64,000 nt of DNA. It comes from Candidatus Latescibacterota bacterium. GTDB taxonomy: Bacteria; Latescibacterota; UBA2968; UBA8231. This document shows, one piece after another, positions 4,295-63,212 of the stretch (position 1 is its first letter; every line of letters starts with the position of its first letter). The notes under the pieces were generated by a model. It saw only the letters and a list, made by a program, of their open reading frames with translations. It was not told the DNA's origin and ran no database searches. Made by a program: the position numbers and the translations under genes. The stretch spans positions 782,889-846,888 of the forward strand of contig OZ253462.1 of assembly GCA_965261395.1 (NCBI GenBank), read 5' to 3'.

Positions 4295-5089
4295 TTATTT
4301 CCCCTTTGCCGCGCCCGGCTCCGGCAGCTCAGCGGTAACCGGCTCGAACTGGCGCGCCACCACCCAATCGGGACGAGGATTCTCAACGTCGCCCGGCACG
4401 TTGTCGATGGCGGCGAAGGCGTAGATCAGACTGTAGCGCTGCGCGGGTGAGAAGTTGTGGTTCGAGCCGTGCACGATCCGGCAGTCGAAGAAACAGACGT
4501 CGCCAGCGTCGCCCTCAATCGGAATGATCATCGACTCATCGGTGATGTGCTCGCGCAGCGCCTCCGGCGTGATGCACCACTGCTTGTAGCTGGTGGTGAT
4601 CTCGTCGCTGTAGTGGTCCAGCACGCCCCAGTGATGTGAACCCTTCACCAGCGCGATGCAGCCATTGTTGCGCGTGTTCGGACCCAACATGACCAGCGCG
4701 GAGGCCAACCGATCGTCGACGCCGTCATAGCACCAGTAGCCGTAGTCCTGGTGCCAGAGCCACACGGTGCCCTCGAATGACTCCTTGTAGTTCATCTTGC
4801 TGTGGAAGATGTAGGCGTCGCGCCCGAAGATCTGCTTGATCGGCCCGGCGATCGGCACCGAGCGGCACAGCTCTCGGAACGGCTGCACATTGCGGTGCAT
4901 GCAGAACACCGAGCGCACCGGACCGCTCTGCTCGCGCACCACGTGCACCTCCGGCGGGTTGTCGGCCTGCTCAGACATCATCTCGTCGGCCGCCGAGCGC
5001 AATCGCTCGATCTGATCCGGCGGGATCAGTCCGCGCTGTATCAGAAACCCCTGCTCGCGATAGGTCGCCAATTGTCTTTCGCTCCACAT
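4295..5089 (-). CDS. PhyH-family Fe(II)/2OG dioxygenase (ectoine-hydroxylase-like subgroup)
   Basis: WLWHQDYGYWCYDG (HxD motif with EctD-like context), ALVKGSHHWG, distal His in RIVHGSNHN. 264 aa. Confidence 0.85.
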   Translation of the reverse strand: MWSERQLATYREQGFLIQRGLIPPDQIERLRSAADEMMSEQADNPPEVHVVREQSGPVRSVFCMHRNVQPFRELCRSVPIAGPIKQIFGRDAYIFHSKMNYKESFEGTVWLWHQDYGYWCYDGVDDRLASALVMLGPNTRNNGCIALVKGSHHWGVLDHYSDEITTSYKQWCITPEALREHITDESMIIPIEGDAGDVCFFDCRIVHGSNHNFSPAQRYSLIYAFAAIDNVPGDVENPRPDWVVARQFEPVTAELPEPGAAKGK

Positions 5090-5143
5090 GGTCGTTCATC
5101 CTCCCTGTGGCTTAAAGTCAAATCAAGCGTTCAAAAGCTGGCC

Positions 5144-5401
5144 CTAACGGCTCCCGTCGGCACCGCGCAGCGCCTCGACGCGCCATGCGAACTCTTCCTC
5201 CAGATGCGAGTCGCTCCCCTCGCTCCCCCGTTCGACAAACTGAATGTAGCCATCGCCATCGACAAACCAAGTCGTGGGCCAGCCATTGATGCCGGCCTTT
5301 TGCACGTACCCGTCGTCCGTTAAGACGGTAAAATCATATTCATTCTCCGCCATGAAGCTGTCAAGCACATCGCGCGACTTGTCGTTGCTGATGGAGATCA
5401 C
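5144..5401 (-). pseudogene. C-terminal fragment of a thioredoxin-fold (TlpA/redoxin-like) protein lacking the CxxC half
   Basis: 85-aa ORF with GTG start in a GTGA overlap with the TPR gene stop. Contains GINGWPTTWFVDGDGYI (cis-Pro/beta-strand region of redoxins), but no CxxC-bearing N-terminal half is present. Confidence 0.4.
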
Positions 5402-8250: not shown

Positions 8251-9693
8251 TCAATAGAGGTCGTCTTTTGTCGTAATGGAGCACCAGCGCGAGTTGAACA
8301 GTGCGCGGAGCAAAATATCCCGTGCGTCGGGCGTGTCCACTTGTTTTAACCCATAAGCGGCGTAAAATCGGTTGTAGCGATTCTCGTCCTCGAGCATCTC
8401 GCGCAATGCCTCAAGCGCAATACAACCCGCTTCGCCGGACTTGGCCAAGGTTAGCGCGGCGTTGCGGCGCACGCGGTAGTCCTCATCGCCGAGTGCTGCT
8501 GTCAAGTCAGCAATCAGCTCATCAGAAAAAACGCCGATGGCGCTCAAAGCCTCAATCGCATTGCGGCGCACCCACCAGTGGCGATCACTCATCGCCTTTC
8601 TCAGGGCGGGTTCTGCCTCCATTGCGCTCGCGCCCAAGCGTCCCAACACATGGGCGGCGACCGCCCGCACCCACCAGTGCTCATCGGACAACATCTCCGC
8701 CAAAGCCCCTGCGGCCGGTCCGCCTATCGACGCCAATGCCAGCGCCGCACAACCGCTCGTGGGATTGGTTCCGTGGGCATTATCCGGTGTCTTGGCCTCG
8801 GTCTCTTCGATCGTGGCCAGTGCTTCCTCCCGCATGGCGGCGACGAGTTCAGGCACGGCCGGCGCGCCAAACTCGGCCAGCCCATACGCCGCATCCAACC
8901 GCTCGCCCTCCGATCCGCGCTTCAAGACCGAGAGCAAGTCTTTCGTATTGCCATTTGGAGGCCGCTGTTTTTTTGCGGGTTTCCCGCACAACCAGTGCCA
9001 GACATCTCGTGATAGGGCCGGATGCCGATCCTCCATGCCGGGCGACCACGCACGACTTTGATGATCCCAAGTCGGTTTCTCTGGCTCCCGTGTACGCGCA
9101 AACTGAAATTTCAGCATATACCGATCTTTGCTACTGACATTCTCTGTTGCGCGATGCCAAGAATCAAAGTGAATGAGCGCCACCGTCCCCGCAGGACCGC
9201 AAAATGCCCGCGCTTCTTCCTGCGTTTTTTCGGGATCCACATCGCTAATGGTTTTGTACATCTGCATCCCGGGCAACACCCCCGACGGCCCCATATCCTC
9301 TGTCGTGTCTTGCGGAAAGTAAAAAGCGAGCACCCAATAAAATCTCGGATGCCGCAAATTGTGATCGTACACATAACAATCCTTGTGCCATTGCTGTCCT
9401 TGTCGCCCGGGCGGATTCAAGTGGCAATGTCGATGGGGGTTCAAAATGTAATCTGGCCCCAATAAACTGGTCAGGGCGCCCTGCACATTGGGGTGCTCAA
9501 ACACGCGCCCGATCTGCGGAACCCGAGGCAAAATGTTATTTCCGGGATTGCCTTCTTCCGCAAAAACCGCCTCAATCTGATCGCGAATACCGGCGTGAAA
9601 TGAGGGTGGATAATCCGCCTGCACAGTCAGACATCCATCCACGATAAATCGCTGCACCTCTTCGTCGCTCAACAACTGAATTGAATCCGCCAT
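8251..9693 (-). CDS. PhyH-family dioxygenase fused to C-terminal HEAT (PBS-lyase-type) repeats
   Basis: N-terminal half: QWHKDC (HxD), FYFPQDTTEDMGPSGVLPG, FDSWHRAT. C-terminal half: repeated HWWVRAVAAHVLGRLG, HWWVRRNAIEALSAIG and DYRVRRNAALTLAKSG units. 480 aa. Confidence 0.85.
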   Translation of the reverse strand: MADSIQLLSDEEVQRFIVDGCLTVQADYPPSFHAGIRDQIEAVFAEEGNPGNNILPRVPQIGRVFEHPNVQGALTSLLGPDYILNPHRHCHLNPPGRQGQQWHKDCYVYDHNLRHPRFYWVLAFYFPQDTTEDMGPSGVLPGMQMYKTISDVDPEKTQEEARAFCGPAGTVALIHFDSWHRATENVSSKDRYMLKFQFARTREPEKPTWDHQSRAWSPGMEDRHPALSRDVWHWLCGKPAKKQRPPNGNTKDLLSVLKRGSEGERLDAAYGLAEFGAPAVPELVAAMREEALATIEETEAKTPDNAHGTNPTSGCAALALASIGGPAAGALAEMLSDEHWWVRAVAAHVLGRLGASAMEAEPALRKAMSDRHWWVRRNAIEALSAIGVFSDELIADLTAALGDEDYRVRRNAALTLAKSGEAGCIALEALREMLEDENRYNRFYAAYGLKQVDTPDARDILLRALFNSRWCSITTKDDLY

Positions 9694-9726: not shown

Positions 9727-10503
9727 TCAATCGACCAGACCCCAGAGACGCTGCCGCGCCTCGGGCCAGTCCGGCCAGCCAGGGTGTAGGTGCTTCAGCG
9801 CCGCCAAGTCGCGCTTGCGCCCGCCCGGTGGGAAGTAGTTCCAGCCCATGGCGCGTCGCGGGCCAGCGGCCGTCTTCACTCCGGTGGCGTGCCAGCAAGA
9901 GGGCGTCCACACCAGGGTCCATCTCGGATCGAGGACGACCTCGACTTCGCTATGATGATGGGCGAAGCAGTGCGCTGGCACCTCGTCGTGGGTGCCGGAG
10001 ACCAGTTCAAGCTGCAGCAGTTCGGCCGCCACCTCCTCGCGGGGACGGTGCTGGCTGCCGGGTAGCACTCGCAGCGGTGCGTTGCTGGCGTCGTGGCGAT
10101 CGAGGGCGGTGCGGAAGGAGACCTGCTTCACCTCCGGCCCTCCATCCACGTGCCAGTGGACCTGCCGCTGCGGTCGGCCGTCGGCGCTGACTATCTTCGA
10201 AGCGTCGCCGAGGCCGCAGGCACCCACGTGTACCTCTTCGGCGTCTAGTATCCGCCGCGCCGCCGCGACCAACTCGGGGTGCTCCACCATCTGCAGCAGC
10301 GACTCGCCAATCATCAGGAACTGGCAGGCCAGCCGGTTGCAGCCTTCGGGGAACTCGGTGCGCTCCCACTCCGGCTCCACCTCTTGCTGCCGGATGTCGA
10401 TTTGGCGTACCCCCTCTACACCGACGGGGTTGGGGATCAAGAAGAACCCATTGCGCTCGAAGTGAGCGAGCTGTTCGTCGGTGATGTGGAAGGAGCCGCC
10501 CAT
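9727..10503 (-). CDS. PhyH-family Fe(II)/2OG dioxygenase
   Basis: VHWHVDGG (HxD), ALDRHDASNAPLRVLPGSQH, distal His in SCWHATG. ATGA overlap with the upstream gene at 10501-10505. Confidence 0.8.
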   Translation of the reverse strand: MGGSFHITDEQLAHFERNGFFLIPNPVGVEGVRQIDIRQQEVEPEWERTEFPEGCNRLACQFLMIGESLLQMVEHPELVAAARRILDAEEVHVGACGLGDASKIVSADGRPQRQVHWHVDGGPEVKQVSFRTALDRHDASNAPLRVLPGSQHRPREEVAAELLQLELVSGTHDEVPAHCFAHHHSEVEVVLDPRWTLVWTPSCWHATGVKTAAGPRRAMGWNYFPPGGRKRDLAALKHLHPGWPDWPEARQRLWGLVD

Positions 10504-11357
10504 CAGGCACTCCCCACGGCACTTTCTTGTTGGACGATGCTTTTGATTTTTTGGAAGGGTGCCACTTCGACCAGCTCAAGAGCCTCGGGCGAGAGGCGCG
10601 CCTTCACGCCCTCGGGCAAGGGGTTGGAAGCGGGAATGTGCTGGCTGCAATAGCGCAGGGTCAAAAAGCGGCGCTGGCGGTCTTTGGGCTGCCAAGAAAG
10701 GGCACCGTGGACGACCAGCTCGGAAATGACGACCACATCCCCGGCCTTGGGGTTGAAATTGGCCACACCCTCGGGGACTTCGGTGGAGTTGTAGTCGTCG
10801 TTATACGTGCCATCCTTGTAACTGCCCGGGTAGAACATTTCCGGCGGGCGAGGGAAATTGACCTTGTGCGAGCCAGGTAGGACGATGAGGCCGCCGTCGC
10901 CCGGGTGTACATCCGTGAGGTAAAAGAAAAAGACCAAGTCATTGCAGGAAATGCGGCCGTTGTGGATTTGGTAGCGACGCCAGCCCGGCACTTCCGCCCG
11001 CAGCGAGCCCTCGTGGCCCGAGTGCAGAGGGTGGAAGGGTTTGCCGTGGAAATCGACCATCATATTGCCGCCGCCGAGCCGCGGCCGCTCGTCGAGCAAT
11101 TCTTTGACGATCGGCCAAGTCTCCGGGTGCATGGTCAGGGCTTCGAGGGCCTTGTCAAAGGCAAAGGCGTGCAAATACCAATTGAAGTGCTCGCGCTCCA
11201 GATTGATCTCAAAGCCGTCGGGCACCTGATCGGGCGGGGTGTCGATATAGCGCTGAGCCGCCTCCTGGGCCTTTTGCAAGGCTGCGCCCTGGAGTACGCC
11301 TTCAAGGTGCAGATAGCCGGTCAAATCGAAGAAGTAGCGCTGTTCGGGGGTCATCAT
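10503..11357 (-). CDS. PhyH-like dioxygenase, GDGG-PGSHK subgroup without obvious HxD
   Basis: EQRYFFDLTGYLHLEGVL N-terminus, PLHSGHEG at the expected HxD position, FFFYLTDVHPGDGGLIVLPGSHK, distal His in LVVHGALSW. 284 aa. Confidence 0.75.
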   Translation of the reverse strand: MMTPEQRYFFDLTGYLHLEGVLQGAALQKAQEAAQRYIDTPPDQVPDGFEINLEREHFNWYLHAFAFDKALEALTMHPETWPIVKELLDERPRLGGGNMMVDFHGKPFHPLHSGHEGSLRAEVPGWRRYQIHNGRISCNDLVFFFYLTDVHPGDGGLIVLPGSHKVNFPRPPEMFYPGSYKDGTYNDDYNSTEVPEGVANFNPKAGDVVVISELVVHGALSWQPKDRQRRFLTLRYCSQHIPASNPLPEGVKARLSPEALELVEVAPFQKIKSIVQQESAVGSA

Positions 11358-33710: not shown

Positions 33711-33995
33711 ATGGACGCACCCCGCCAACGCCTGCTCTACTTGCAGGCGCGCACCCCTAGCGTCATGTCCAATATCATCGGTCTAACGCTCATCGAGCCG
33801 GTCGCGGGCTTTGCGCCCGAAATCCACGCCGAAACAGCACCCGATTGGCCCTACGAAACCGTACACGACGCCGTAGTTGACGGCTGGCAAATCGTCCAAT
33901 TTCCTCACCTCCAGGCCCCGTTCGACGACAGGGAATTGGACGTGATAGGCTATGAATTTATCCTACAGAAAATGGAGGTTATTGCCGATGGATAA
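33711..33995 (+). CDS. small hypothetical protein overlapping the start of the downstream PhyH gene
   Basis: 94-aa ORF (alternative ATG at 33765). Its 3' end overlaps the PhyH start at 33988 by 8 nt. No family recognised. Confidence 0.45.
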   Translation: MDAPRQRLLYLQARTPSVMSNIIGLTLIEPVAGFAPEIHAETAPDWPYETVHDAVVDGWQIVQFPHLQAPFDDRELDVIGYEFILQKMEVIADG

Positions 33996-38876: not shown

Positions 38877-38877
38877 G

Positions 38878-39759: not shown

Positions 39760-39784
39760 CCAATTGCTCCTTAAGTGATCTGTG

Positions 39785-40645: not shown

Positions 40646-40682
40646 ATTCTCTCCTCTAAGTCGCCCTGCGTTTATGCCTAGC

Positions 40683-41696: not shown

Positions 41697-41744
41697 CCGC
41701 CGCTTTCTTTGTTGACCGCAACCCTCCGCGTCAATACCTGTTTA

Positions 41745-42662: not shown

Positions 42663-42688
42663 CCTCCTTTTCGCGGTGCATCTAGGAC

Positions 42689-42994
42689 CTACTCGGCCTT
42701 GGGGAATGGGCCGGGCGGCGTCTTATTGGTTCCATCCACCTCGTATTCGTCCGCCGGAAACGCCGTGCATAAGAACTTGCGAAAGCGCTGTGCTCGCGCC
42801 TCGGGCGTATCGCCCATCGGATCCATGGGGTCGGCGTCCGTGCGTACGTTCTCTGGCTCGGGCGTGTACAGGATGTTCTTGATCACCCCGCGCATCTCTG
42901 CCGCTTGGTCGGCCGTCGCGACCCCAGGCACTGTGAAATAGCCCTTCTCTTCCCACGTTTGGACTTGGGCTTGGGTGGGTTGCCAGCTTTTCAT
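42689..42994 (-). pseudogene. N-terminal fragment of a PhyH-family gene
   Basis: 101-aa ORF. PTQAQVQTWEEKGYFTVPGVATADQAAEMRGVI and ARAQRFRKF resemble the first 75 aa or so of PhyH proteins. No HxD or PGSH region follows. Confidence 0.45.
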
Positions 42995-43006
42995 GCGTCC
43001 TCCATC

Positions 43007-44146
43007 TCAGTGCTCTTCAACTACCAGCGAGCTGAATTTATCCTCGTCCCACTCCGCGCCCCAACCCGGCCCATCCGGGGGCGCGATGTGCCCTTCTTCA
43101 ATCAAGGGCGCGTTGAGCAAACCCCACCGCGCCCCGGTCTGCCGCAAGCTGTCGGCCGTTGCCCCGAAAAACTCGTAGAAATCCGTGTTGTCGATACAGC
43201 AGCCCAAGTGCGCGTGGACCAGCCCATCCAACGCCCCGCCGCCATTCAGTTCGATATTCGCGCCGTGCAGCTCGGCCAGATGCGCCAGCTTCAGCACCTG
43301 CGTCGTCCCGTGCCGGGCATTGCCCCGCAGGCGATCGGTCGCCCCTTGGATCAGCCATTGCGCCGTCAAGTCGATGTCGTGCATCAGCATCTCGGTGCCC
43401 ATCACCGGAATGGTCAACGCTCGGCACAACTCCTGATATTGATTCATCTTCTGCTCGTGCATCGGCTCTTCCAACCACACAAAATCCAGTTCCTCCAGCA
43501 CCCTCCCCACTTCAAGGGCCTCGCGCAAGTCATAGGAACACACTGGATCGGTGATCAACTCGTAATCCGGCCCCACGGCGTCCCGCACGGCCCTGTAAAT
43601 GGGGATATCGGCCTTGCCTCCTTTATAGGTGTGAAACTTGTACGCCCCAATACCCATCCCCTTGCCGGTCTCTATGGCCCTGAGATAGCCCTCTATGTCC
43701 GTATCTCCGCCGGTCAGATACGCGGGTAGCCGCGGCCGCACGCGCCCCACCAACGCATAGACCGGTAGCCCCGCAGTCTTGCCCAAAATGTCCCACAGAC
43801 AGTTGTCAAACGCCCCAAACCAACCCGGGGGCTGGTACACCCACCGAGTTCCCTTCCAAAACTGCTGAAACAACTCCTCGCGCTCCCAAGGGCTCCGCCC
43901 CACCGAGTGATACCGCACGATGTCGGCCTGATAGGGAGTCATCGACGTATCGCTGCGGCCCACGATCCCCTCGTCCGTATGCACCTCCAAAAAGCTCTGC
44001 CGCACCGGGCGCAATTCCTGATCGGGTCTGCCCCTATGCGTGTACTGTGTCCTCCTCAGCCCCTCTACCCGCGCGATACTATGGCCGACGCTCCCCTTGC
44101 GGCTTGGGTCTTCCAACACCAGCAATTTCACCGCAGTGATTTTCAT
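43007..44146 (-). CDS. enolase-superfamily enzyme (MR/MLE family)
   Basis: MKITAVKLLVLE, VHTDEGIVGRSD, CLWDILGKTAGLPVYALVG, VWLEEP. Confidence 0.85.
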   Translation of the reverse strand: MKITAVKLLVLEDPSRKGSVGHSIARVEGLRRTQYTHRGRPDQELRPVRQSFLEVHTDEGIVGRSDTSMTPYQADIVRYHSVGRSPWEREELFQQFWKGTRWVYQPPGWFGAFDNCLWDILGKTAGLPVYALVGRVRPRLPAYLTGGDTDIEGYLRAIETGKGMGIGAYKFHTYKGGKADIPIYRAVRDAVGPDYELITDPVCSYDLREALEVGRVLEELDFVWLEEPMHEQKMNQYQELCRALTIPVMGTEMLMHDIDLTAQWLIQGATDRLRGNARHGTTQVLKLAHLAELHGANIELNGGGALDGLVHAHLGCCIDNTDFYEFFGATADSLRQTGARWGLLNAPLIEEGHIAPPDGPGWGAEWDEDKFSSLVVEEH

Positions 44147-49594: not shown

Positions 49595-50476
49595 TCACAC
49601 CGAATCGGCCACCTCGGCGAGTCCTGCGTAGCCGTTGCTCTGCTTGGGTCTGCGGGAATGATGTGAGGGCAAGAGCAGGGCTGCCTGTTGGGGAGCGGTG
49701 AGCTCGTCCCAGTAGGACGGCCGTCGGCCGCGCACGCCGCCTCCACCCCATGACATGTGCCCGGCGTTGTACTTGTAGAGGATGGCGCGGCGCTGGTGAT
49801 CGGCATCCCACGGGAGGGTGCCGTGGGTGCATGCCTCGCTGAAGATGATGGCGTCGCCGGCTTTGGCGTTTATCTCGGTCACGTATTCCTGGTACTGTTC
49901 CCATCTGCGCATCTTGGCCGGGCAGGTCACGTTAGCCTTGTGGCTGCCGGCAATGACGCTGATGCCGCCGTCGCCGGGCCCCTCGTCGGCGAGCAGGTAT
50001 TCGATGACGCAGAGGCCGGTGAAGATCTTACCCTCGCGGTAGAAATAGGGTGCGTTGTCGAAGTTGCCGTGCAGCATGCCGCCGGAACATCCCTTGTCCA
50101 TAGCGATCAGACCCGGACCGTGGTCGAGCCGCCAGCCTTCCCCGAGGATCGTATTGAGGTGAGGGATGGTTTTGGGATGCGCCAGCATTTCTCTGAACGG
50201 CTCGCAGAGCGGCCGCGGCAGTTCCAACAGGCCCTCGCTGTTGCCGAGGCGTGTCGAGGTGTTTTCACCCTGCAAAGCAACGGAATCGCCAAAGTACTCC
50301 GGGCTCGGTGTGAGCTCCATTGAGTCGATGGCGTCGTTGGCCAGCTTCAGGTGTTCCTCGCTCAGCACGTCCCGCACGATCAAAAATCCGAGCAGGTCGA
50401 AGAGGTACTTCTCATCGGCGGACATTTCCACCGTTTCTGCGGTGATTGAGCGCGAGGTGTTGGCGTGTTCAATCAT
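49595..50476 (-). CDS. PhyH-like dioxygenase, GDGG-PGSHK subgroup without obvious HxD
   Basis: DEKYLFDLLGFLIVRDVL, MLHGNFD at the expected HxD position, EYLLADEGPGDGGISVIAGSHK, distal His in EACTHGTLPW. Confidence 0.75.
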   Translation of the reverse strand: MIEHANTSRSITAETVEMSADEKYLFDLLGFLIVRDVLSEEHLKLANDAIDSMELTPSPEYFGDSVALQGENTSTRLGNSEGLLELPRPLCEPFREMLAHPKTIPHLNTILGEGWRLDHGPGLIAMDKGCSGGMLHGNFDNAPYFYREGKIFTGLCVIEYLLADEGPGDGGISVIAGSHKANVTCPAKMRRWEQYQEYVTEINAKAGDAIIFSEACTHGTLPWDADHQRRAILYKYNAGHMSWGGGGVRGRRPSYWDELTAPQQAALLLPSHHSRRPKQSNGYAGLAEVADSV

Positions 50477-51688: not shown

Positions 51689-52447
51689 ATGAACCCATCA
51701 GACTACGAATTCTTTCGCCACAATGGCTACGTCCGCCTAGGCCAACTCTTCTCCGATCAAGACGCCGCCCGCCTGCGCCAGAGCTTTGACGAGGACCGCG
51801 CAACTTGGGGCCGCGCCATGTGGCACCCCTTGGAAAGCGCCTACCAGACCGTCAACTGCGATCCCCTGATCACTTGGCCCGCAGTCGAAGAGATCATCCG
51901 CCACCCGCAAATCCTCGACGCAGTGGAAGCGCTGCTCGGCGCTCCCATCTGCCTCTCTGAAGCCTGCTTGCGCCACATGGCACCCTACGAGGGCGAAGGC
52001 TGGCGACGCTGGCATCGCGACCGGCCGCACTGGCAGCAGCACCCCCTGCACACCCAGTATGTCCACGCCCTCGTCTATTTGGCCGACGTTGACGAGACCA
52101 CCCACTGCTTCTCCCTCTCGCCTGAAGCCGCCGACGCGCCCATTTTGGACCAGGAAGATCAGCTCGCCCGCGGCGGTATCGTCGATCTGCACGGACCGGC
52201 CGGCACCGTCGCGCTCTTCAACCTCTCGGTGCTACACACGGCGACCATCCGCCCGACGCAACAAGAACGCAAAACCGTACAGATCTACTACGGACGCCGC
52301 GACCAACCTCATTTGAGCAACTACACAACCCTGCCCGCTCGACTCTGGCGCGACCACTCCGACCCGGAGGTCCATGCCTTCTACTCGGTACTCAACCCTA
52401 AGTCGCGGGCTTTTGCCATAGCCTTCGGTGCATCTGCACCTGAGTAA
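51689..52447 (+). CDS. PhyH-family Fe(II)/2OG dioxygenase
   Basis: YEFFRHNGYVRLGQLF, RRWHRDRPHW (HxD), LVYLADVDETTHCF, FNLSVLHTAT. Confidence 0.8.
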   Translation: MNPSDYEFFRHNGYVRLGQLFSDQDAARLRQSFDEDRATWGRAMWHPLESAYQTVNCDPLITWPAVEEIIRHPQILDAVEALLGAPICLSEACLRHMAPYEGEGWRRWHRDRPHWQQHPLHTQYVHALVYLADVDETTHCFSLSPEAADAPILDQEDQLARGGIVDLHGPAGTVALFNLSVLHTATIRPTQQERKTVQIYYGRRDQPHLSNYTTLPARLWRDHSDPEVHAFYSVLNPKSRAFAIAFGASAPE

Positions 52448-53913: not shown

Positions 53914-54617
53914 TCTTTGAACTCCTCCTCCAGCCGGTCTCCGGCCGCCTGCCAAGCGGCAATGATCCGGTCGTAATATGGATGATCCTCGCACGCCTCC
54001 AACTGCCCGCTAGCTTCCAGCCAGTTGATCGTCCGCCGCACGCCTTCGACCCAAGGGATGGTGACGCGGAAGCCCAGGTCGGCTCGCGCCGCCGCGTTGT
54101 CGAAGAGGTTGTTGTATTTGAAATTCCACTCGGTCCACTCGGCTCGGCGCCCGGCTATCCGCACCAGCAAGTCGGTGGGAATCCGCACCATCTCCGGCGC
54201 GGGCGCGCCTAGGGCCTCGGCAATGCCCTCGTTGTAGCGCTCCCAAGTCATCCACTCTTCGCCCGCGACGTGATAGCCCCGCCCCAGCGCCTTGTCGTTG
54301 CCCAAGGCCCCGACAAAGGCCACTGCTACGTCGTCGCGGTGGCAGGTCGGCCAAAAGGACGAGCCATCGCCGTGGACGATGATCGGCAGACCCTTTCTGA
54401 TGCGGTCCACATAGAAGTTGCCCGGCAGCGAATGGATCAGGTTGTTGCCGCCCTCGCCGTAGGTGTGCCCCGGACGGATACTGGTCACGGCCAGTTCGCC
54501 CGTCTCGTGCGCACGGAACAAACGCTCCTCGCAGCGCGCCTTGTTGAAGGCGTAGCCAAACGCCGGATTGGGCTGCCGCTCGGCCTCCTCGGTGATCGGG
54601 TACTTAGGCTTCGTACA
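53910..54617 (-). pseudogene. 5'-truncated NAD-dependent epimerase/dehydratase (extended SDR) remnant
   Basis: The open frame reads KPKYPITEEAERQPNPAFGYAFNKARCE (YxxxK region) and onward. It is closed upstream by a TGA at 54618-54620, inside the 3' end of the PhyH gene. No Rossmann GxxGxxG region is present. Confidence 0.65.
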
Positions 54618-55371
54618 TCACCGGGCAAATCTGGGGATCGTCCAAATGCGCGGTGTAGTAGCTCTGGTCGCCGGGCACCGGCACGGCCCTTTCGTCGCGC
54701 AAATGCACGGCCAAGCTCCAGCGCGCCGCATCCGAGACATTGGCGTTGGAGCCGTGGTAGGTTAGGCAGTGGTGGACGCTAAGCCCGCCTAAGGGCATCA
54801 GCACTGGCACTTCCTCCCAAGTCTCGCCCGCGGGCACCGCGATGTCCTCCCGCAGTTTATGCTGATCCTTGTCGAAGAAATTGCCCTGATTCAAAAAGCC
54901 CCAACGATGCGACCCGCGCACAAAGCGCATCGGGCCCGACTGCTCGCCCACATCGCACAGCGCGATCCACGCTGTAAACAGCCCTTCGTCTTGCTGCCAC
55001 ATGCGCCAGTACTGGCGGTCTTGGTGCCAGCCGACGTGCCCTGCAGCTGCGGACCCCGGCGGCTTGATTAGCAACTGGCTCGCCCACACCTGCACTCGCT
55101 GGGCACCCGTCACTTCGGCGACCTTGCGCCCCACTTGTGGACAGGTCACCAATCCATAGAGTCCCGTATCCGACCGATGCGGATTATTGATCTTGCACAA
55201 CACCTCTGGATCATATCCAGGATGCTCGGTCGGCGGCAGCCCCATATCGAACACCCCATCGCGCACCGCCACCATTCCCCGCACCGCCTTTTCCAGCACA
55301 TCGTCCGGCGCGATCTGCTCATCCGCGATACAATACCCGTCCCGCTCGTATTGCTCGACCGTTTGTCTCAT
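54604..55371 (-). CDS. PhyH-family Fe(II)/2OG dioxygenase (ectoine-hydroxylase-like subgroup)
   Basis: QYERDGYCIADE, HVGWHQDRQYW (HxD), WIALCDVGEQSGPMRFVRGSH, LTYHGSNAN. Confidence 0.85.
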   Translation of the reverse strand: MRQTVEQYERDGYCIADEQIAPDDVLEKAVRGMVAVRDGVFDMGLPPTEHPGYDPEVLCKINNPHRSDTGLYGLVTCPQVGRKVAEVTGAQRVQVWASQLLIKPPGSAAAGHVGWHQDRQYWRMWQQDEGLFTAWIALCDVGEQSGPMRFVRGSHRWGFLNQGNFFDKDQHKLREDIAVPAGETWEEVPVLMPLGGLSVHHCLTYHGSNANVSDAARWSLAVHLRDERAVPVPGDQSYYTAHLDDPQICPVMYEA

Positions 55372-56174: not shown

Positions 56175-56188
56175 AGGAGTTCCCCCCT

Positions 56189-57717: not shown

Positions 57718-57730
57718 ACTGGAAATGGAG

Positions 57731-57760
57731 AACCCCGCGTCGAAAAGGCGCGGGGTTTTT
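57731..57760 (+). terminator. Rho-independent terminator
   Basis: AACCCCGCG - TCGAAAAGG - CGCGGGGTT followed by TTT, 14 nt after the cyclase stop. Confidence 0.75.
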
Positions 57761-57776
57761 AACACCCAAGACCTCT

Positions 57777-58883
57777 ATGCAAGCATCCCAATATCCCACT
57801 CCACCCAGTCGCCTGCACGACCTCTTGCGCCCCGAAGTCCTAGCCGCCTTCGACCGCACCTTCTTTGAGCGGGAAGGCTATTGGGTCTGGGAGGGCGTCC
57901 TAACCGACGCCGGGCAACAGCGCTGGACGGCCAGCCTGCAAAAGCTACAACGGATGAACGACGCCGTTGTAGTAGATACCGATTGGGCCGCCATGGACTA
58001 CGCGAGCCGTGGGTTGCCCAAACCGACACCGGAGCAGACGACTCCTGAGTTCCTGTCCGCCTGTTGCGGCGGATCGGAGCAGATGCGCTTTATGTCGTCG
58101 AAACTCCGCGCCTATATGTACGAACAGGGGCTTTTCGGACCTGGTTCCGCGCCGGTCTCCGCGGAATTCGAGTGGCAGGGGATGATGCCCGAATACTTTC
58201 CGCTCGCCTACGACGATTTTATCCTCGACGCCACCACCAGCCACCCGCAGATGATGGAACTGTTCGGTCAGCTCCTCGGCGAGCGCTTCCTGATTGACCA
58301 CTGCCTGATGCTCAACCGGCCTGCGGGATCGAGAGGGCGACGCTGGCACGCGCACCCGTATCGCCAAGGGCAGTACGAAAGCGAAAGCGCAATCGGCGAC
58401 GGCCACGCGCTAACCACCCAATTCCTAGCGCAGCAATGCGTCCGCACCCTGTGCTATCCCGAAGGGATGGGGATCGGCGACGGAGGCGGTGAGTTGGCCG
58501 TTATCCCCGGTTCCCACCTCTATCGCATTCCCTATCGGTGGAATTCCACGAGGCCCGAATACGACGACGAAATGCAGACCAACTGGATAGCGGGTAAAAT
58601 CCACGCCTTTACCGGCGAACCTTTGCGGATTGAGCGCTTGTCGCTGCCGCCCGGCAGCATGGTTTCCTTCGTTCACCATATGCCGCATCACGTCGGCCAC
58701 CGCGACCCGGATGCGCCCACTCGCTGGGGTCTGCTGATGGCCTACCGGACTCCCGACTCCAAAGCGAGTCCGGCCAAATGGAACGAAGGGACGCCCGCCC
58801 ATTGGGCCGAGCGCATGGAAGCGGCGAGCAGGCTCACTCCTGCAATGCGCCGGATATTCGAAGGGGATCATTCTTTGGCTTAG
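57777..58883 (+). CDS. divergent PhyH-like dioxygenase (WHAH variant)
   Basis: FFEREGYWVWEGVL N-terminus, RRWHAHPY at the HxD position, CYPEGMGIGDGGGELAVIPGSH, FVHHMPHHVGH. 368 aa. Confidence 0.65.
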   Translation: MQASQYPTPPSRLHDLLRPEVLAAFDRTFFEREGYWVWEGVLTDAGQQRWTASLQKLQRMNDAVVVDTDWAAMDYASRGLPKPTPEQTTPEFLSACCGGSEQMRFMSSKLRAYMYEQGLFGPGSAPVSAEFEWQGMMPEYFPLAYDDFILDATTSHPQMMELFGQLLGERFLIDHCLMLNRPAGSRGRRWHAHPYRQGQYESESAIGDGHALTTQFLAQQCVRTLCYPEGMGIGDGGGELAVIPGSHLYRIPYRWNSTRPEYDDEMQTNWIAGKIHAFTGEPLRIERLSLPPGSMVSFVHHMPHHVGHRDPDAPTRWGLLMAYRTPDSKASPAKWNEGTPAHWAERMEAASRLTPAMRRIFEGDHSLA

Positions 58884-58994
58884 GGGACGCCTTTATCCTT
58901 TAATCCGATGTTCAAGCTTATGGAGCTACGACTGGCGGCTCCCGTCTATAAAGTCCTATACTATCGCCATATCGCATCCACGAGGAGATACGCC

Positions 58995-60953: not shown

Positions 60954-60971
60954 TAAGGAAGGACCGTGCGC

Positions 60972-61067
60972 ATGAATTCCCTCTTCCGCCTCGACGCCTC
61001 CTCTTCAGCCAACCTAGAATTCTTCCACCAAGACGGATTCACCGCCATGCCTCGGGTATCCATTTGA
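60972..61067 (+). pseudogene. 31-codon fragment of a PhyH paralog 5' end
   Basis: MNSLFRLDASSSANLEFFHQDGFTAMPRVSI* compared with MNSLFRQQAPSSADLDSFHQDGYIFYPDV at 62394. Confidence 0.5.
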
Positions 61068-61116
61068 TAAGCACCAACCATCTCCGTCGTCGCTTTAGTA
61101 CCCACCGTCCATCTCA

Positions 61117-62397
61117 ATGAACTTTTTTCGCGGCTTCTCGCTCAAAATCACCTGTACCTTGCTGGTGTTTGCCTTGGGCTTTGCCAACTCGGTGCTGCTG
61201 GCCGGCCAACTAGGGAGGGAACAGTATGGCGTTCTAGCGGTATGGATCAACATCGTCATGCTGGGATCACTGCTCTTGGGGGACTGGCTCAACAAGGGGA
61301 ACATCTACATAGTGGGGCGAGAGCGGGCGCGGGAGGCTGCGATCAATCACACCCTATTATACGGTCTCACGTTGGGTGCCCTCCTCTTGCTGAGTGCCCC
61401 TTTTAGCCTGAAGATCGCCAACCTTTTGCTTCCCGGCATTACCTTGGTCCAATGGGTCTTAGGCGTCGGCGTAATTGCGCTCACCGTGCTGCAAAACGCT
61501 GGACTTTCCATCCTTTTAGGCGAAGACCGACTCAAGCTCCACGCGCTACTACCCGTGATTTTTATCGTCGTCTATCTCGGCGGCAACCTAGTCCTTTTTC
61601 AGCTAGGGCACTTCCGCTTGGAATGGGTGATGGGGATCTGGATAGGAGCGGTAGGGGCAACGGCACTGGCGGCTTTGGTGCCTTTTCTGTACAACAGCGG
61701 GTTTCGCTTTAAGTGGGGAGGCCGATACTGGCTGGAGCAGATATTCCGAGTTGGCTCGCGTGGCGAGGTTTGCGCCGTGCTCATTTTCTTGATGCTCAAA
61801 AGCGACCTCTTTTTGATCCGCCACTTTTTGGGCGAGGAAGAAGTCGGCGTGTACAGGGTGGCGACGAACTTTACAGACATGGTGCAGCGCGTGCCCAACG
61901 TTGCTTCCCTCGTCCTCCTCGCCAAGATAGTGCGCGGCCAAGGCAGCACGCGGCTCTCCTTGAACATCGCACAGGGGGTATTTGCATTTGCTCTCCTTTC
62001 GGCTGTTGGCTTGGTCCTCGGCGGACGCCCGCTATTGAGCATTTTCTTCCCCTTGTATCCAGATGCCTACGCGCCTCTTGTTTGGCTGTTGCCCGGCATG
62101 TTGTTTTTGGGTTGCGGGGCCGTGTTCAACGCCAAGCTAATGGGCGAGGGCTACCCCTCCATAACCCTCTGGGCACCGGGCGTCGCGCTGGCGGCCAACT
62201 TGGCCCTGAACCTATTGTTGATCCCCAAGCTGGGCCTGCGCGGTGCCGCCCTATCTACTTCGCTGGCGTATGCGTTATGGGGCGTGCTGACGGCTTCTTA
62301 TTTCCTTCGTCTAAACCGGCTGAGCTGGCGGGCTGTCTTCGCGCCGCCCTCTTTTGGGCGAGAGGAACCGTCGACGCTCTCAAAGGAATCGCCATGA
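61117..62397 (+). CDS. MOP-superfamily polysaccharide/oligosaccharide flippase (Wzx-like)
   Basis: 426 aa with about 12-14 TM segments. General Wzx-like layout with a charged loop VGSRGE...FLGEEEVGVYRVA in the middle. Confidence 0.75.
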   Translation: MNFFRGFSLKITCTLLVFALGFANSVLLAGQLGREQYGVLAVWINIVMLGSLLLGDWLNKGNIYIVGRERAREAAINHTLLYGLTLGALLLLSAPFSLKIANLLLPGITLVQWVLGVGVIALTVLQNAGLSILLGEDRLKLHALLPVIFIVVYLGGNLVLFQLGHFRLEWVMGIWIGAVGATALAALVPFLYNSGFRFKWGGRYWLEQIFRVGSRGEVCAVLIFLMLKSDLFLIRHFLGEEEVGVYRVATNFTDMVQRVPNVASLVLLAKIVRGQGSTRLSLNIAQGVFAFALLSAVGLVLGGRPLLSIFFPLYPDAYAPLVWLLPGMLFLGCGAVFNAKLMGEGYPSITLWAPGVALAANLALNLLLIPKLGLRGAALSTSLAYALWGVLTASYFLRLNRLSWRAVFAPPSFGREEPSTLSKESP

Positions 62398-63212
62398 ACT
62401 CACTATTTCGCCAACAAGCTCCCTCCTCAGCCGACTTGGACTCCTTCCACCAAGACGGCTATATCTTCTACCCGGACGTACTCAAGGACGAGGCCCGGCG
62501 CAGCCTAACCAACGAAATCCTCGGCCTCGACTCGGTGCGCCACTACCTCGACGCCTTGGACGAAAAGTCCGCCGCGCCCCAATCCTACTTCGTCCGCCCC
62601 TGGAACGACCGCGGCCCATGCGGCGACCACCTCATAGACGATCCCTTTGTCACCGCGCTGCTGCAAGCTACCATCGGCCCAAGCTACCACTTCTGCCACT
62701 CCGCTCTCAACCTTGCCCCGCGTGGCATAGGCCCCGTTCCCTACCACCAAGATCACCACCACTGGAAGCACGAAAACCCCATCAACCTCGCCGAGCGCGA
62801 CAAGTACTACATCCAAATTCTCTACTATCCCAATGGCTTCACACTCGGCGACCGCAACCTCAAGGTCATTCCCGGCAGCCACCTCGTCGCCCCGACCGCA
62901 GAGGCCACGCCTGAACGCATGCTGGCCGGGGCATACGACGCAGAGGCCGGGCGCGAGCTAAAAGAGATGCGGCTCGCAGTGCCTCCGGGCAGCATGGTCT
63001 ATATCAACGCGCGGATTTTCCACGCCGTCGAAGCCAAACCCGCCGACTCCCCTCAGCCCTATCGCATCTTCAACATCGACATCTTCAAAGAAGCTGGGCC
63101 GCCGCATCGCTATACTCAGGAGATCCCGCCCGAATGGATTGCACGCGCCAATCCCCAACGCAAAAGACTCTTTCTCCGCGAGCCTTATACGGAAGGATGT
63201 TGGACGGCCTGA
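62394..63212 (+). CDS. PhyH-family Fe(II)/2OG dioxygenase
   Basis: Start trimmed to ATG 62394 (ATGA overlap with the flippase stop). FHQDGYIFYPDVL, PYHQDHHHW (HxD), LYYPNGFTLGDRNLKVIPGSH, ARIFHAVEA. The 499-aa track ORF is an over-extension. Confidence 0.85.
   Translation: MNSLFRQQAPSSADLDSFHQDGYIFYPDVLKDEARRSLTNEILGLDSVRHYLDALDEKSAAPQSYFVRPWNDRGPCGDHLIDDPFVTALLQATIGPSYHFCHSALNLAPRGIGPVPYHQDHHHWKHENPINLAERDKYYIQILYYPNGFTLGDRNLKVIPGSHLVAPTAEATPERMLAGAYDAEAGRELKEMRLAVPPGSMVYINARIFHAVEAKPADSPQPYRIFNIDIFKEAGPPHRYTQEIPPEWIARANPQRKRLFLREPYTEGCWTA

What the first reader, a model, noticed from the sequence alone, without database searches (positions are those of the whole stretch)
4295..63212. Thirteen full-length PhyH-type Fe(II)/2OG dioxygenase paralogs plus two fragments in 64 kb
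**Full-length PhyH-like ORFs (strand in brackets)**
- 4295..5089 (-)
- 8251..9693 (-)
- 9727..10503 (-)
- 10503..11357 (-)
- 25275..26615 (+)
- 33988..34767 (+)
- 39785..40645 (-)
- 41745..42662 (-)
- 49595..50476 (-)
- 51689..52447 (+)
- 54604..55371 (-)
- 57777..58883 (+)
- 62394..63212 (+)

Fragments lie at 42689..42994 and 60972..61067.

**Shared architecture**
Each full-length ORF has the PhyH layout: an N-terminal xxGY/F-hydrophobic block, an HxD-position motif, a PGSH-like strand about 30-45 aa later, and a distal His.

**Subgroups**
- EctD-like, with WHQDxxYW: 4295 and 54604.
- HEAT-linked group: 8251, 25275 and 33988.
- GDGG-(P/T/A)GSHK group: 10503, 41745 and 49595.
- Several singletons.

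Because the copies are this divergent, this is an old, diversified expansion rather than a recent tandem amplification. About one gene in four or five here is a dioxygenase of unknown substrate, which is far above what ordinary metabolism needs.
Basis: partly seen in the sequence, partly recalled or inferred. Interest (0 to 1): 0.75.

Follow-up and report, generated by a model that had tools for sequence, protein, structure and literature searches.

The report
PhyH dioxygenase hotspot in Latescibacterota
A 64-kb stretch of a Latescibacterota chromosome, probably from a sponge symbiont, carries 13 intact and one decayed gene for very different iron/2-oxoglutarate oxygenases of the PhyH family, set inside sugar-acid breakdown operons; a similar gene-family excess is already published for another sponge-symbiont phylum, Poribacteria, and its function remains unknown.

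Summary
All 13 ORFs exist at the stated coordinates. Twelve pass Pfam PF05721 (PhyH) above the curated cut-off. The 13th (57777-58883) fails Pfam but has a confident PhyH-type predicted fold. Both fragments are real gene remnants.

The copies fall into at least 7 old subfamilies, mostly under 30% identical. Orthologues in a sister genome sit in the same order and show purifying selection (dN/dS 0.02-0.18).

- Nine have HxD...H.
- Two have the HygX-type H-x-G...E-x3-H.
- One related copy has D-K-G at that position.
- One family has an invariant H-x-H.

The window comes from a 6.55-Mb Latescibacterota chromosome, not Poribacteria. The genes lie in tight operons with sugar-acid dehydratases, aldolases and transporters.

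My best reading is a set of cytoplasmic oxygenases that hydroxylate or strip substituents from imported decorated sugars and amino-acid derivatives. The substrate part is inference.

PhyH excess is already published for Poribacteria (Kamke 2014). I found no report of it for Latescibacterota. This is therefore a new member of a known kind, of moderate interest.

The parts
4295..5089 (-). PhyH oxygenase with WHQD...H...R. It belongs to the free amino-acid/ectoine hydroxylase branch.
   Evidence: PF05721 at 104 bits. Best solved relatives: trans-3/4-proline hydroxylase H11 (7DZZ, E 2.6e-35), EctD, and leucine hydroxylase (5NCH). Ectoine hydroxylase TIGR02408 scores 139 bits against a 336.5 cut-off.
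8251..9693 (-). PhyH domain fused to C-terminal HEAT repeats (WHKD...H...R).
   Evidence: PF05721 at 40.4 bits and HEAT_2 at 91 bits. At least 1113 homologues; the listed ones are mostly full-length, and some are named Latescibacteria, Poribacteria or Gammaproteobacteria. HxD, the distal His, the Arg and an extra H-R-H-x-H motif are invariant or nearly so in 117 sequences.
9727..10503 (-). PhyH oxygenase with WHVD...H...R. A singleton subfamily.
   Evidence: PF05721 at 45.3 bits; alignment.
10503..11357 (-). HygX-type PhyH oxygenase: H112-S-G114 ... E213-x3-H217 ... R229.
   Evidence: PF05721 at 47.5 bits. A profile of the group hits HygX (4XC9/4XCB) at E 4e-14. The motif is near-invariant in 120 homologues. 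The AF2 model has pLDDT 86.7, and its best Foldseek hit is HygX at E 1.7e-16, TM 0.65/0.72.
25275..26615 (+). Second PhyH-HEAT fusion (MHQD...H...R). The mechanical ORF starts at 25185.
   Evidence: PF05721 at 42.5 bits and HEAT_2 at 81 bits. It is 43% identical to the 8251 ORF over 446 aa.
33988..34767 (+). PhyH oxygenase of the HEAT-group catalytic type, without HEAT repeats (WHQD). First gene of an operon with an SGL-like propeller, an enolase-superfamily dehydratase and RidA.
   Evidence: PF05721 at 56.1 bits. About 38% identical to 8251 and 25185. Neighbours. Orthologue conserved in L003-L012. dN/dS 0.13.
37152..44146 (-). Seven-gene minus-strand run with gaps of 12-48 nt or overlaps: enolase-superfamily dehydratase, PhyH remnant, PhyH 41745, UxuA-like TIM barrel, PhyH 39785, HpcH aldolase, IlvD/Edd dehydratase.
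   Evidence: Pfam assignments; coordinates. The same order is found in sister genome L086 and around IlvD in L003-L012 and L076.
39785..40645 (-). PhyH oxygenase (IHWD...H...R) lying between the UxuA-like gene and the HpcH aldolase gene.
   Evidence: PF05721 at 52.7 bits. dN/dS 0.115 against L086. Orthologue next to IlvD in 11 related Latescibacterota loci.
41745..42662 (-). HygX-type PhyH oxygenase (H-N-G ... E-x3-H ... R).
   Evidence: PF05721 at 31.9 bits. Motif. It is 98% identical to the L086 orthologue, with dN/dS 0.024.
42689..42994 (-). Decayed 14th PhyH gene. An in-frame internal deletion of about 550 bp removed the catalytic core.
   Evidence: Matches the window PhyH HMM at E 1.3e-6. 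A full 283-aa gene sits at the same place in L086. dN is 0.157, four to five times that of the neighbours.
49595..50476 (-). HygX-related PhyH oxygenase with D127-K-G129 where its relatives have H-x-G. E-x3-H and Arg are kept.
   Evidence: PF05721 at 29.9 bits. It is 28% identical to 10503 (E 1e-20). Position of D-K-G. dN/dS 0.08.
51689..52447 (+). PhyH oxygenase (WHRD...H...R). A singleton subfamily.
   Evidence: PF05721 at 54.8 bits. dN/dS 0.18.
54604..55371 (-). PhyH oxygenase (WHQD...H...R).
   Evidence: PF05721 at 98.5 bits. Best solved relatives: ThoJ (6ZYK, E 1.2e-16), SnoK and MysH.
57777..58883 (+). PhyH-fold protein from a family that Pfam does not cover. Invariant W-H-x-H ... G-x-H ... 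H ... R.
   Evidence: PF05721 at only 14.5 bits. 142 close homologues, all unnamed or 'hypothetical'; every one that carries an organism name is Latescibacteria/-ota. Invariant residues. AF2 and Foldseek results. 434 clusters at E<=1e-3 among 1.84 billion representatives.
60966..61067 (+). 33-codon ORF that duplicates the 5' end of the 62394 PhyH gene. It lies upstream of an intervening Wzx-like membrane-protein gene (61117-62397).
   Evidence: 66-nt direct repeat at 76% identity. Alignment. The same arrangement occurs in L085.
62394..63212 (+). PhyH oxygenase (YHQD...H). The nearest window relative of 57777.
   Evidence: PF05721 at 33.9 bits. BLASTP to 57777 at E 2e-9. Called as 272 aa in L085.

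Best explanation
**Shown.** The window is part of a 6.55-Mb chromosome of a Latescibacterota bacterium. Thirteen intact genes and one decayed gene sit here, from at least 7 anciently diverged PhyH-family (PF05721) subfamilies. They lie inside tightly packed operons. The other genes in these operons encode enolase-superfamily, IlvD/Edd and UxuA-like dehydratases, HpcH aldolases, aldo-keto reductases, an opine dehydrogenase, glycosidase-like proteins and transporters. The genes are kept in the same order in sister species and are under purifying selection.

**Inferred.**
- Each protein is a soluble cytoplasmic enzyme. It binds Fe(II) through a facial triad and 2-oxoglutarate through a conserved Arg.
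- Nine carry the canonical triad, two or three the HygX-type relocated carboxylate, and one a possible three-His site.
- Each uses O2 to hydroxylate one particular imported small polar molecule.
- The most likely substrates are decorated sugars or sugar acids, and for the EctD/proline-hydroxylase-like copy an amino-acid derivative.
- Hydroxylation next to a heteroatom would remove a substituent such as O-methyl or amino, or install the hydroxyl or keto group that the neighbouring dehydratases and aldolases need to reach pyruvate.
- On this reading the array is a broad-specificity toolbox for the chemically varied organic matter of the host or its food. It parallels the PhyH excess of Poribacteria, which share the polysaccharide-degrading guild in sponges.
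For: **Family membership and fold.**
- Pfam hits.
- Predicted folds and structural matches.
- Ligand and Arg conservation.

**The genes are functional.**
- dN/dS is 0.02-0.18 for six PhyH genes, against 0.04-0.34 for their neighbours.
- Orthologues of 39785 and 33952 flank IlvD in 11 related Latescibacterota loci.
- Full synteny over 21 kb in L086.

**Catabolic context.**
- Pfam assignments of about 40 neighbouring genes.
- Intergenic gaps of 1-60 nt within the runs (coordinates).
- HygX-type homologues in unrelated genomes again sit beside rhaM, an enolase-superfamily gene, apiosidase-like glycosidases, an aldo-keto reductase, an MFS transporter and sugar-isomerase TIM barrels.

**Precedents for PhyH-family enzymes acting on sugars.**
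- HygX on an aminoglycoside pseudo-oligosaccharide (PMC13374393).
- PHYHD1/FJS removing the 2'-O-methyl group of nucleosides, including a Poribacteria enzyme (PMC12709175).
- SnoK and kanamycin B dioxygenase among the structural or sequence hits.

**Taxonomy.**
- IlvD is 90-95% identical to about 10 Latescibacterota MAG chromosomes.
- The exact proteins lie on a 6,549,484-bp contig.

**Guild.** Robbins 2021 places Latescibacterota class UBA2968 and Poribacteria in the same sponge polysaccharide-degrading guild (PMC8163846).
Against: - No substrate is demonstrated for any copy.
- No NCBIfam equivalog cut-off is reached.
- None is close to the proven 2'-O-methyl nucleoside demethylases: at most 26% identity, E at least 6e-7.
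- The PhyH-HEAT homologue examined in another genome has no conserved partner gene. The 57777 homologue examined sits among housekeeping genes. Operon context is therefore not universal.
- HEAT repeats suggest protein rather than sugar partners for two copies.
- The opine dehydrogenase, GNATs and aminotransferase hint at nitrogenous substrates for some copies.
- The proximal metal ligand of 49595 is unresolved.
- A three-His site in 57777 may mean chemistry other than 2OG-dependent hydroxylation.
- Genome-wide PhyH frequency for this organism was not measured.
- Sponge origin rests on the names of related MAGs, not on sample metadata.
Confidence: 0.55

Rival explanations
1. Most copies act on nitrogenous small molecules rather than on sugars. 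Candidates are amino acids, ectoine-like osmolytes, opines, and quaternary amines from the host. Examples would be proline/leucine/ectoine-type C-hydroxylation or oxidative N-dealkylation.
For: - The closest solved relatives of 4295 are a proline hydroxylase, EctD and a leucine hydroxylase.
- An opine dehydrogenase (7041-8135) lies in the same minus-strand run as four PhyH genes.
- GNAT acetyltransferases, a class-V aminotransferase and RidA are nearby.
Against: - The neighbours in the two tightest operons are sugar-acid dehydratases and aldolases.
- HygX-type homologues elsewhere sit with rhaM and glycosidases.
- No ectoine hydroxylase cut-off is met.
Confidence: 0.25
2. The genes are tailoring oxygenases of one or more natural-product biosynthetic clusters, as are HygX, SnoK, SptF and FtmOx1.
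For: Many of the best structural matches are biosynthetic tailoring enzymes.
Against: - No PKS, NRPS, terpene synthase, glycosyltransferase or sugar-nucleotide pathway core was found among about 55 genes scanned.
- The neighbours are catabolic.
- The subfamilies examined have hundreds to over a thousand homologues across metagenomes, which is unusual for cluster-specific tailoring enzymes.
Confidence: 0.08
3. Some copies, above all the two PhyH-HEAT fusions, hydroxylate proteins or act as oxygen or 2OG sensors, rather than as catabolic enzymes.
For: - HEAT repeats are protein-interaction modules.
- The fusion architecture is conserved, mostly full-length, in the homologues listed (>=1113 hits in all).
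- It carries an extra invariant His-rich motif.
- It has no conserved operon partner in the other genome examined.
Against: - The HEAT-less sibling 33952 leads a sugar-acid operon.
- No candidate protein substrate is evident.
- This would explain at most 2-3 of the 13 copies.
Confidence: 0.1
4. The array is an assembly or binning artefact, or a graveyard of non-functional duplicates.
For: - The sequence comes from metagenome assemblies.
- One copy is decayed and a second is represented by a short 5' duplicate.
Against: - The same order appears in independent assemblies: ERZ25068833, ERZ18545484 and about 10 MAG chromosomes.
- dN/dS is 0.02-0.18.
- Catalytic residues are conserved.
Confidence: 0.02

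Closest known systems
PhyH (pfam05721) over-representation in Candidatus Poribacteria (Kamke et al. 2014, PMC3909097)
   Same: - Very many, very divergent PhyH-domain genes of unknown substrate in a sponge-symbiont lineage from the polysaccharide-degrading guild.
- Kamke reports more than 1.9% of genes, and 305 sequences in 193 clusters at 60% identity.
- A protein named as Poribacteria shares the PhyH-HEAT fusion at 59% identity over full length.
   Different: - The phylum differs: Latescibacterota by the names of the closest relatives.
- I found no paper reporting this for Latescibacterota or PAUC34f.
- The local density here (13 of about 58 genes) and the operon linkage to sugar-acid genes were not described there.
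HygX, the orthoester-forming Fe/2OG oxygenase of hygromycin B biosynthesis (PDB 4XC9/4XCA/4XCB/4ZPI)
   Same: - 10503 and 41745 share the H-x-G ... E-x3-H relocated-carboxylate metal motif.
- HygX is the best sequence-profile hit (E 4e-14) and the best structural hit (TM 0.65/0.72).
- HygX acts on a carbohydrate-like substrate.
   Different: - Only 21-22% identical.
- HygX Lys137, proposed to fill the gap left by the Gly, appears to align with a hydrophobic residue here. This rests on my counting of the alignment and on the 4XC9 chain numbering being the native one.
- The context is catabolic, not an aminoglycoside cluster.
- 49595 has D-K-G instead of H-x-G.
Ectoine hydroxylase EctD, proline hydroxylase H11 and the leucine hydroxylase of PDB 5NCH (GriE, name from my own knowledge)
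   Same: 4295 aligns end to end with these enzymes (E 1e-27 to 3e-35) and has HxD...H...R.
   Different: - It scores well below the ectoine-hydroxylase equivalog cut-off (139 against 336.5 bits).
- No ectoine synthesis genes are nearby.
PHYHD1 / FJS 2'-O-methyl nucleoside demethylases (PMC12709175)
   Same: - Same Pfam family.
- They show that PhyH-family enzymes, including one from Poribacteria, can strip an O-methyl group from a sugar ring.
   Different: The best window match is 26% identical at E 6e-7, so none is an orthologue.

Membership tests
Pfam PF05721 PhyH | Whole-protein score at or above the gathering cut-off of 22 bits. | tested here: met
   Met by 12 of 13, at 29.9-104 bits. Not met by 57777-58883 (14.5 bits), which is placed in the fold by structure prediction only.
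Fe(II)/2OG-dependent oxygenase | 2-His-1-carboxylate facial triad, HxD/E ... H. | tested here: inconclusive
   By alignment, nine copies have HxD...H. Copies 10503 and 41745 have HxG with a relocated Glu. Copy 49595 has DKG at that place. Copy 57777 has HxH. Metal binding itself was not measured.
Fe(II)/2OG-dependent oxygenase | Basic residue (Arg) about 10 residues after the distal His, binding the C5 carboxylate of 2OG. | tested here: met
   An Arg is present at that position in all 13 in the alignment. It is invariant in the three subfamilies sampled more deeply.
Fe(II)/2OG-dependent oxygenase | Double-stranded beta-helix fold of the PhyH type. | tested here: met
   Tested for two copies only. 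The 57777 model matches SptF, EctD, FtmOx1 and AviO1 at E about 1e-9. The 10503 model matches HygX at E 1.7e-16.
Fe(II)/2OG-dependent oxygenase | 2OG-dependent, O2-dependent turnover. | not testable with these tools
   Needs purified protein.
Ectoine hydroxylase (NCBIfam TIGR02408) | Score at or above the 336.5-bit equivalog cut-off. | tested here: not met
   Copy 4295 scores 139 bits, 54604 scores 25.6 bits, and the others at most 25 bits.
HygX-type relocated-carboxylate oxygenases | H-x-G at the HxD position, plus E-x3-H supplying the carboxylate. | tested here: met
   Met by 10503 (HSG ... ELVVH) and 41745 (HNG ... EALAH). In 120 family members the counts are H 119, G 114, E 120 and H 120. 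Copy 49595 keeps E-x3-H but has DKG.
HygX-type relocated-carboxylate oxygenases | Lys137 filling the space left by the Gly (proposed in PMC13374393). | tested here: inconclusive
   In the HMMER alignment the HygX Lys of '...PYVKAL...' aligns with a hydrophobic position of the window group, so by alignment the Lys is absent. This rests on my counting of residue numbers and on the 4XC9 chain numbering being the native one.
2'-O-methyl nucleoside demethylases (FJS/PHYHD1 group) | Close sequence relationship to the tested enzymes. | tested here: not met
   The best match is 26% identical at E 6e-7. PHYHD1 (2OPW) hits at only E about 7e-4.
PhnY-type phosphonate hydroxylases | PhnY-like sequence with an adjacent HD-domain PhnZ. 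| tested here: not met
   The only hit is a 16-bit match against a 500-bit cut-off. No HD-domain gene appears among the window genes scanned.

The most novel reading that the evidence does not exclude
Two of the subfamilies here may be catalytically non-canonical enzymes recruited to primary catabolism.

- **The 57777 family.** W-H-x-H is invariant in 47 of 47 full-length members, the Arg is retained where that region is present, no Pfam model covers it, and there are about 430 50%-identity clusters. It would carry a three-His iron site in a PhyH fold.
- **The HygX-type family.** It has at least 872 members and lies in sugar-utilisation contexts. It would use the relocated-carboxylate site for chemistry other than plain hydroxylation, such as oxidative C-O bond formation or cleavage on sugars.

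If so, the PhyH excess of sponge symbionts would hide new reaction types, not only new substrates.
Probability: 0.2. Interest if true: 0.7.

Novelty: new member of a known kind. Interest (0 to 1): 0.45.

Why it matters
What the hundreds of PhyH-domain proteins of sponge symbionts do has been open since it was noted for Poribacteria in 2014.

This window adds three things:
- Going by the names of its closest relatives, a second phylum from the same sponge guild shows the trait.
- The genes are stably embedded in sugar-acid operons, conserved across species and under selection.
- That gives concrete, testable substrate classes, and operon partners for coupled assays.

It also singles out three subfamilies with unusual metal sites as targets for enzymology: HygX-type, D-K-G and H-x-H.

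Tried and rejected
- **Poribacteria origin.** This was my first guess from the literature. It is rejected because the closest relatives of the window's proteins that carry a name are labelled Latescibacterota or Latescibacteria; some older MAG records say Gemmatimonadetes.
- **Orthology to the 2'-O-methyl nucleoside demethylases.** I took the sequences from the paper's supplement and ran BLAST. The best match was 26% identity, so this is rejected.
- **Ectoine hydroxylase, PhnY and chlorinating-enzyme assignments.** All score far below the NCBIfam cut-offs.
- **Halogenase reading of the HxG motif.** This is unlikely because an invariant Glu four residues before the distal His is available as the carboxylate ligand, as in HygX.
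- **Conserved partner genes for the 57777 family and the PhyH-HEAT family in other genomes.** None was found in the one genome examined for each.
- **Solved-structure searches for 39785, 33952 and 57777.** They gave nothing usable.
- **tRNA and Rfam scans.** Both were empty, so there is no sign of a tRNA-bounded island.
- **Genome-wide PhyH density.** I could not measure it, because only loci around looked-up proteins can be fetched.
  - The 10-kb flanks each hold one more PhyH.
  - Of 17 unlinked IlvD-paralogue loci in Latescibacterota, only one holds a PhyH (classified using the titles).
  - One housekeeping locus holds none.

Full report
**Observation**

Scanned against Pfam-A, 12 of them match PF05721 (PhyH) above the 22-bit gathering score, at 29.9 to 104 bits. 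Two of these (8251-9693 and 25185/25275-26615) also carry C-terminal HEAT repeats.

The remaining ORF, 57777-58883, scores only 14.5 bits. It is nonetheless related to the 62394 ORF (BLASTP E 2e-9). An AlphaFold2 model built on 25 homologues (pLDDT 87.5, pTM 0.89) returns PhyH-type Fe/2OG oxygenases as all 50 Foldseek matches listed, including SptF, EctD, FtmOx1, AviO1, proline hydroxylase H11 and SyrB2, at E about 1e-9.

A six-frame scan with an HMM built from the 13 found no further copy, except the fragment at 42689-42994. Thirteen of roughly 58 genes, or 19% of the bases, are PhyH. Even at the 1.9% gene frequency reported for Poribacteria, the chance of 13 or more in 58 is 6e-11.

**The two fragments**

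- **42689-42994.** A sister genome (L086, a 6.27-Mb contig) has a full 283-aa PhyH gene in exactly this position. The window ORF keeps its first ~74 and last ~25 residues in frame, so about 550 bp holding the catalytic core were deleted. Its dN against L086 is four to five times that of the neighbouring genes.
- **60966-61067.** This 33-codon ORF is a 76%-identical copy of the first 66 nt of the 62394 gene. A Wzx-like membrane-protein gene separates the two. The same layout occurs in another assembly.

**Diversity and age**

Pairwise identities are at most 43% and mostly below 30%. By all-against-all BLAST the copies form at least seven groups:
- 8251, 25185 and 33952
- 10503, 41745 and 49595
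- 57777 and 62394
- 4295 and 54604 (weakly linked)
- 9727, 39785 and 51689, each a singleton

Some of these groups are large families in their own right:
- The PhyH-HEAT fusion has at least 1113 homologues. The listed ones are mostly full-length. One is labelled Poribacteria (59% identity) and one Gammaproteobacteria (54%).
- The 10503 group has at least 872 homologues.

This is therefore a co-location of old subfamilies, with a few within-group duplications, and not a recent amplification.

**Metal sites**

In an alignment of the 13, nine have the canonical HxD...H, and all 13 have an Arg about ten residues after the distal His. The other four differ.

- **10503 and 41745.** Both have H-x-G, plus a Glu four residues before the distal His.
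  - A profile of the group hits HygX (PDB 4XC9/4XCB) at E 4e-14.
  - A review describes exactly this H-X-G ... E-X3-H relocated-carboxylate triad in HygX (PMC13374393).
  - Among 120 family members the counts are H 119, G 114, E 120, H 120 and R 120.
  - An AlphaFold2 model of 10503 (pLDDT 86.7) has HygX as its best structural match (E 1.7e-16, TM 0.65/0.72).
  - HygX Lys137 appears to align with a hydrophobic residue here. This depends on my reading of the alignment and on the chain numbering being the native one.
- **49595.** It keeps E-x3-H, but both BLAST and MAFFT place D127-K-G129 where the others have H-x-G. Its proximal ligand is unresolved.
- **57777.** It belongs to a family with an invariant W-H-x-H ... 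G-x-H ... H ... R. This holds in 25 of 25 close members, and W-H-x-H in 47 of 47 more distant full-length members. No Pfam model covers the family. It comprises 434 50%-identity clusters at E<=1e-3 among 1.84 billion representatives.

The PhyH-HEAT family also has an extra, nearly invariant H-R-H-x-H motif just before its HxD.

**Organism**

- The IlvD/Edd protein of the window is 90-95% identical to orthologues on about ten MAG chromosomes labelled Candidatus Latescibacterota, and on one older MAG labelled Gemmatimonadetes.
- The named homologues of 57777 and 8251 are mostly Latescibacteria/-ota; the 8251 list also includes one Poribacteria and one Gammaproteobacteria entry.
- The exact window proteins lie on a 6,549,484-bp contig held by NCBI and ENA, and on a 307-kb contig of ENA assembly ERZ25068833 that differs by a 6.3-kb structural variant.
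- A PorV/PorQ-like protein and a protein with a T9SS sorting tail fit the FCB group.
- Robbins et al. 2021 list Latescibacterota (class UBA2968; lineages Anck6, PAUC34, SAUL) among sponge symbionts. They place it with Poribacteria in the polysaccharide-degrading guild (PMC8163846).
- That the nearest MAGs come from sponges rests on their names and on my recollection of those studies, not on sample metadata.

**Context**

About 45 of the other ORFs were scanned against Pfam. Gaps within each run below are 1-60 nt or overlaps, except in the third run, which has gaps of 33-308 nt.

- **Minus strand, 44146 to 37152:** enolase-superfamily dehydratase, PhyH remnant, PhyH 41745, UxuA-like TIM barrel, PhyH 39785, HpcH aldolase, IlvD/Edd dehydratase.
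- **Plus strand, 33988 to 37151:** PhyH 33952, SGL-like propeller, enolase-superfamily dehydratase, RidA.
- **Minus strand, 11357 to 2281:** PhyH 10503, PhyH 9727, PhyH-HEAT 8251, opine dehydrogenase, TPR protein, PhyH 4295, and a 670-aa protein with no family.
- **Plus strand, 55521 to 63212:** SGNH hydrolase, UPF0093 protein, cyclase-family protein, 57777, PQQ dehydrogenase, the 5' duplicate, the Wzx-like gene, PhyH 62394.

Elsewhere in the window are two aldo-keto reductases, a 2-hydroxyacid dehydrogenase, two more HpcH aldolases, a BNR sialidase-like protein, an apiosidase-like glycosidase, SSF and EamA transporters, GNATs and a class-V aminotransferase. No PKS, NRPS or terpene core was seen.

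**Conservation**

- In the 11 loci that hold the IlvD orthologue in related Latescibacterota species, a PhyH orthologue of 39785 lies upstream. Where the flank reaches far enough, one of 33952 lies downstream.
- Among 17 loci with IlvD paralogues in Latescibacterota only one has a PhyH, and among the loci from other phyla essentially none does (with titles).
- L086 keeps the order of 25 genes, including seven PhyH genes.
- Between the window and L086, six PhyH genes have dN/dS of 0.02-0.18 and their neighbours 0.04-0.34.
- Outside the window the density drops to one PhyH per 10-kb flank. A housekeeping locus in a more distant Latescibacterota genome has none.

**Function**

- No copy reaches an NCBIfam equivalog cut-off. 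The best is 4295 against ectoine hydroxylase, at 139 versus 336.5 bits.
- The closest solved relatives of 4295 are trans-3/4-proline hydroxylase H11, EctD and a leucine hydroxylase.
- For 54604 they are ThoJ, SnoK and MysH.
- The others have no close solved relative.
- None is close to the recently characterised 2'-O-methyl nucleoside demethylases, whose sequences I took from that paper's supplement.
- HygX-type homologues in a Tara Oceans contig and in another MAG chromosome again sit beside sugar genes: rhaM, an enolase-superfamily gene, another PhyH, two apiosidase-like glycosidases, an aldo-keto reductase, an MFS transporter and sugar-isomerase TIM barrels.

From these data I infer cytoplasmic Fe/2OG oxygenases acting on imported small polar molecules. 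Decorated sugars or sugar acids are the leading substrate class, and amino-acid derivatives are likely for at least 4295. The chemistry would be C-H hydroxylation. When it occurs next to O or N, it removes a substituent or creates the carbonyl or hydroxyl that the adjacent dehydratase-aldolase route requires.

There are precedents within the PhyH family:
- HygX.
- PHYHD1/FJS.
- Kanamycin B dioxygenase and SnoK, which appear among the hits. Their activities are stated from my own knowledge.

No substrate is shown for any copy.

**What is known**

- Kamke et al. 2014 reported pfam05721 as the most abundant domain family in Poribacteria single-cell genomes. It made up more than 1.9% of genes, against less than 0.049% in all other genomes then in IMG. 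They found 305 sequences in 193 clusters at 60% identity, mostly of unknown function (PMC3909097).
- Poribacteria transcripts of such genes are abundant (PMC5087111).
- Full-text searches found no report of a PhyH excess in Latescibacterota or PAUC34f. Reading a dedicated sponge-Latescibacterota genome paper, the PAUC34f paper and Robbins 2021 also found none.
- Robbins 2021 does report HEAT-repeat proteins as enriched in sponge MAGs. The PhyH-HEAT fusions would contribute to that count.

**Verdict**

The corrections concern the metal motifs, the 'EctD-like' label and prior knowledge.

The feature is a new member of a known kind. It shows the sponge-symbiont PhyH excess in what appears to be a second phylum, at unusually high local density and with clear operon links.

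Interest is moderate, for three reasons:
- The phenomenon is published.
- Its function remains open, and this locus offers specific tests.
- Three subfamilies have non-canonical metal sites.

Noticed in passing
window 45301-45348 / 46327-46374; 60971-61036 / 62393-62458; 50632-50691 / 55512-55571: Three pairs of diverged direct repeats (76-85% identical, 48-66 nt) each duplicate the end of a gene. The first pair copies the 3' end of the enolase-superfamily gene 44225-45361 and brackets the EamA transporter gene. The second copies the 5' end of PhyH 62394 and brackets the Wzx-like gene. The third copies the 5' end of the SGNH hydrolase 55521-56174 to a site 4.9 kb upstream. It looks like a recurrent way of inserting or shuffling genes, but the mechanism is unknown.
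   Followed up: partly
window 12850-23300: This is a variable segment with lower G+C (0.52-0.54). It holds a 1243-aa He_PIG/FlgD_ig protein with a T9SS sorting tail, two proteins with no family, an LRR protein, a DDE_Tnp_1_3 transposase, and a 63-nt repeat at 18974 and 20602. On the 307-kb contig of ERZ25068833 the same place holds a CBM9 protein, a PIN_10 protein and a split transposase, so this is a strain-level structural variant.
   Followed up: partly
window 57777-58883 and homologues P0001-P0120, P0418-P0563: This PhyH-fold family has no Pfam model. W-H-x-H is invariant in place of HxD, and its named members are all Latescibacteria/-ota. In another genome it sits among Lon, MutL and SurA-like housekeeping genes.
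   Followed up: yes
window 8251-9693 and 25275-26615: The PhyH-HEAT fusion proteins carry an extra, nearly invariant H-R-H-x-H motif 12 residues before the HxD (first and third His and the Arg 117/117, second His 115/117). Public records label them only 'HEAT repeat protein', so they may inflate counts of 'eukaryote-like' HEAT proteins in sponge symbionts.
   Followed up: partly
window 26771-27115 (-): A small 114-aa ORF is built from 33/54-nt tandem repeats (26848-27021). It has only weak coiled-coil-like matches and no family.
   Followed up: no
window 2281-4293 (-) and 50735-51619 (+): Two proteins (670 aa and 294 aa) have no Pfam or NCBIfam match and sit directly next to PhyH genes. The first abuts PhyH 4295 with no gap. 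The second lies between PhyH 49595 and PhyH 51689. Both are conserved in related assemblies, and the 294-aa one has dN/dS 0.14.
   Followed up: partly
window 7041-8135 (-): An opine (octopine/nopaline-type) dehydrogenase gene lies in the same strand run as four PhyH genes. From my own knowledge, marine invertebrates make opines, so this could point to use of host-derived opines.
   Followed up: no
window 29070-29432 (+) and surroundings 28000-32000: This is a low-G+C stretch (0.535). It holds a DUF433 protein, which I take to be antitoxin-like (from my own knowledge, not tested), and several short ORFs with no family, lying between two HpcH aldolase genes. It is probably another small insertion.
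   Followed up: no
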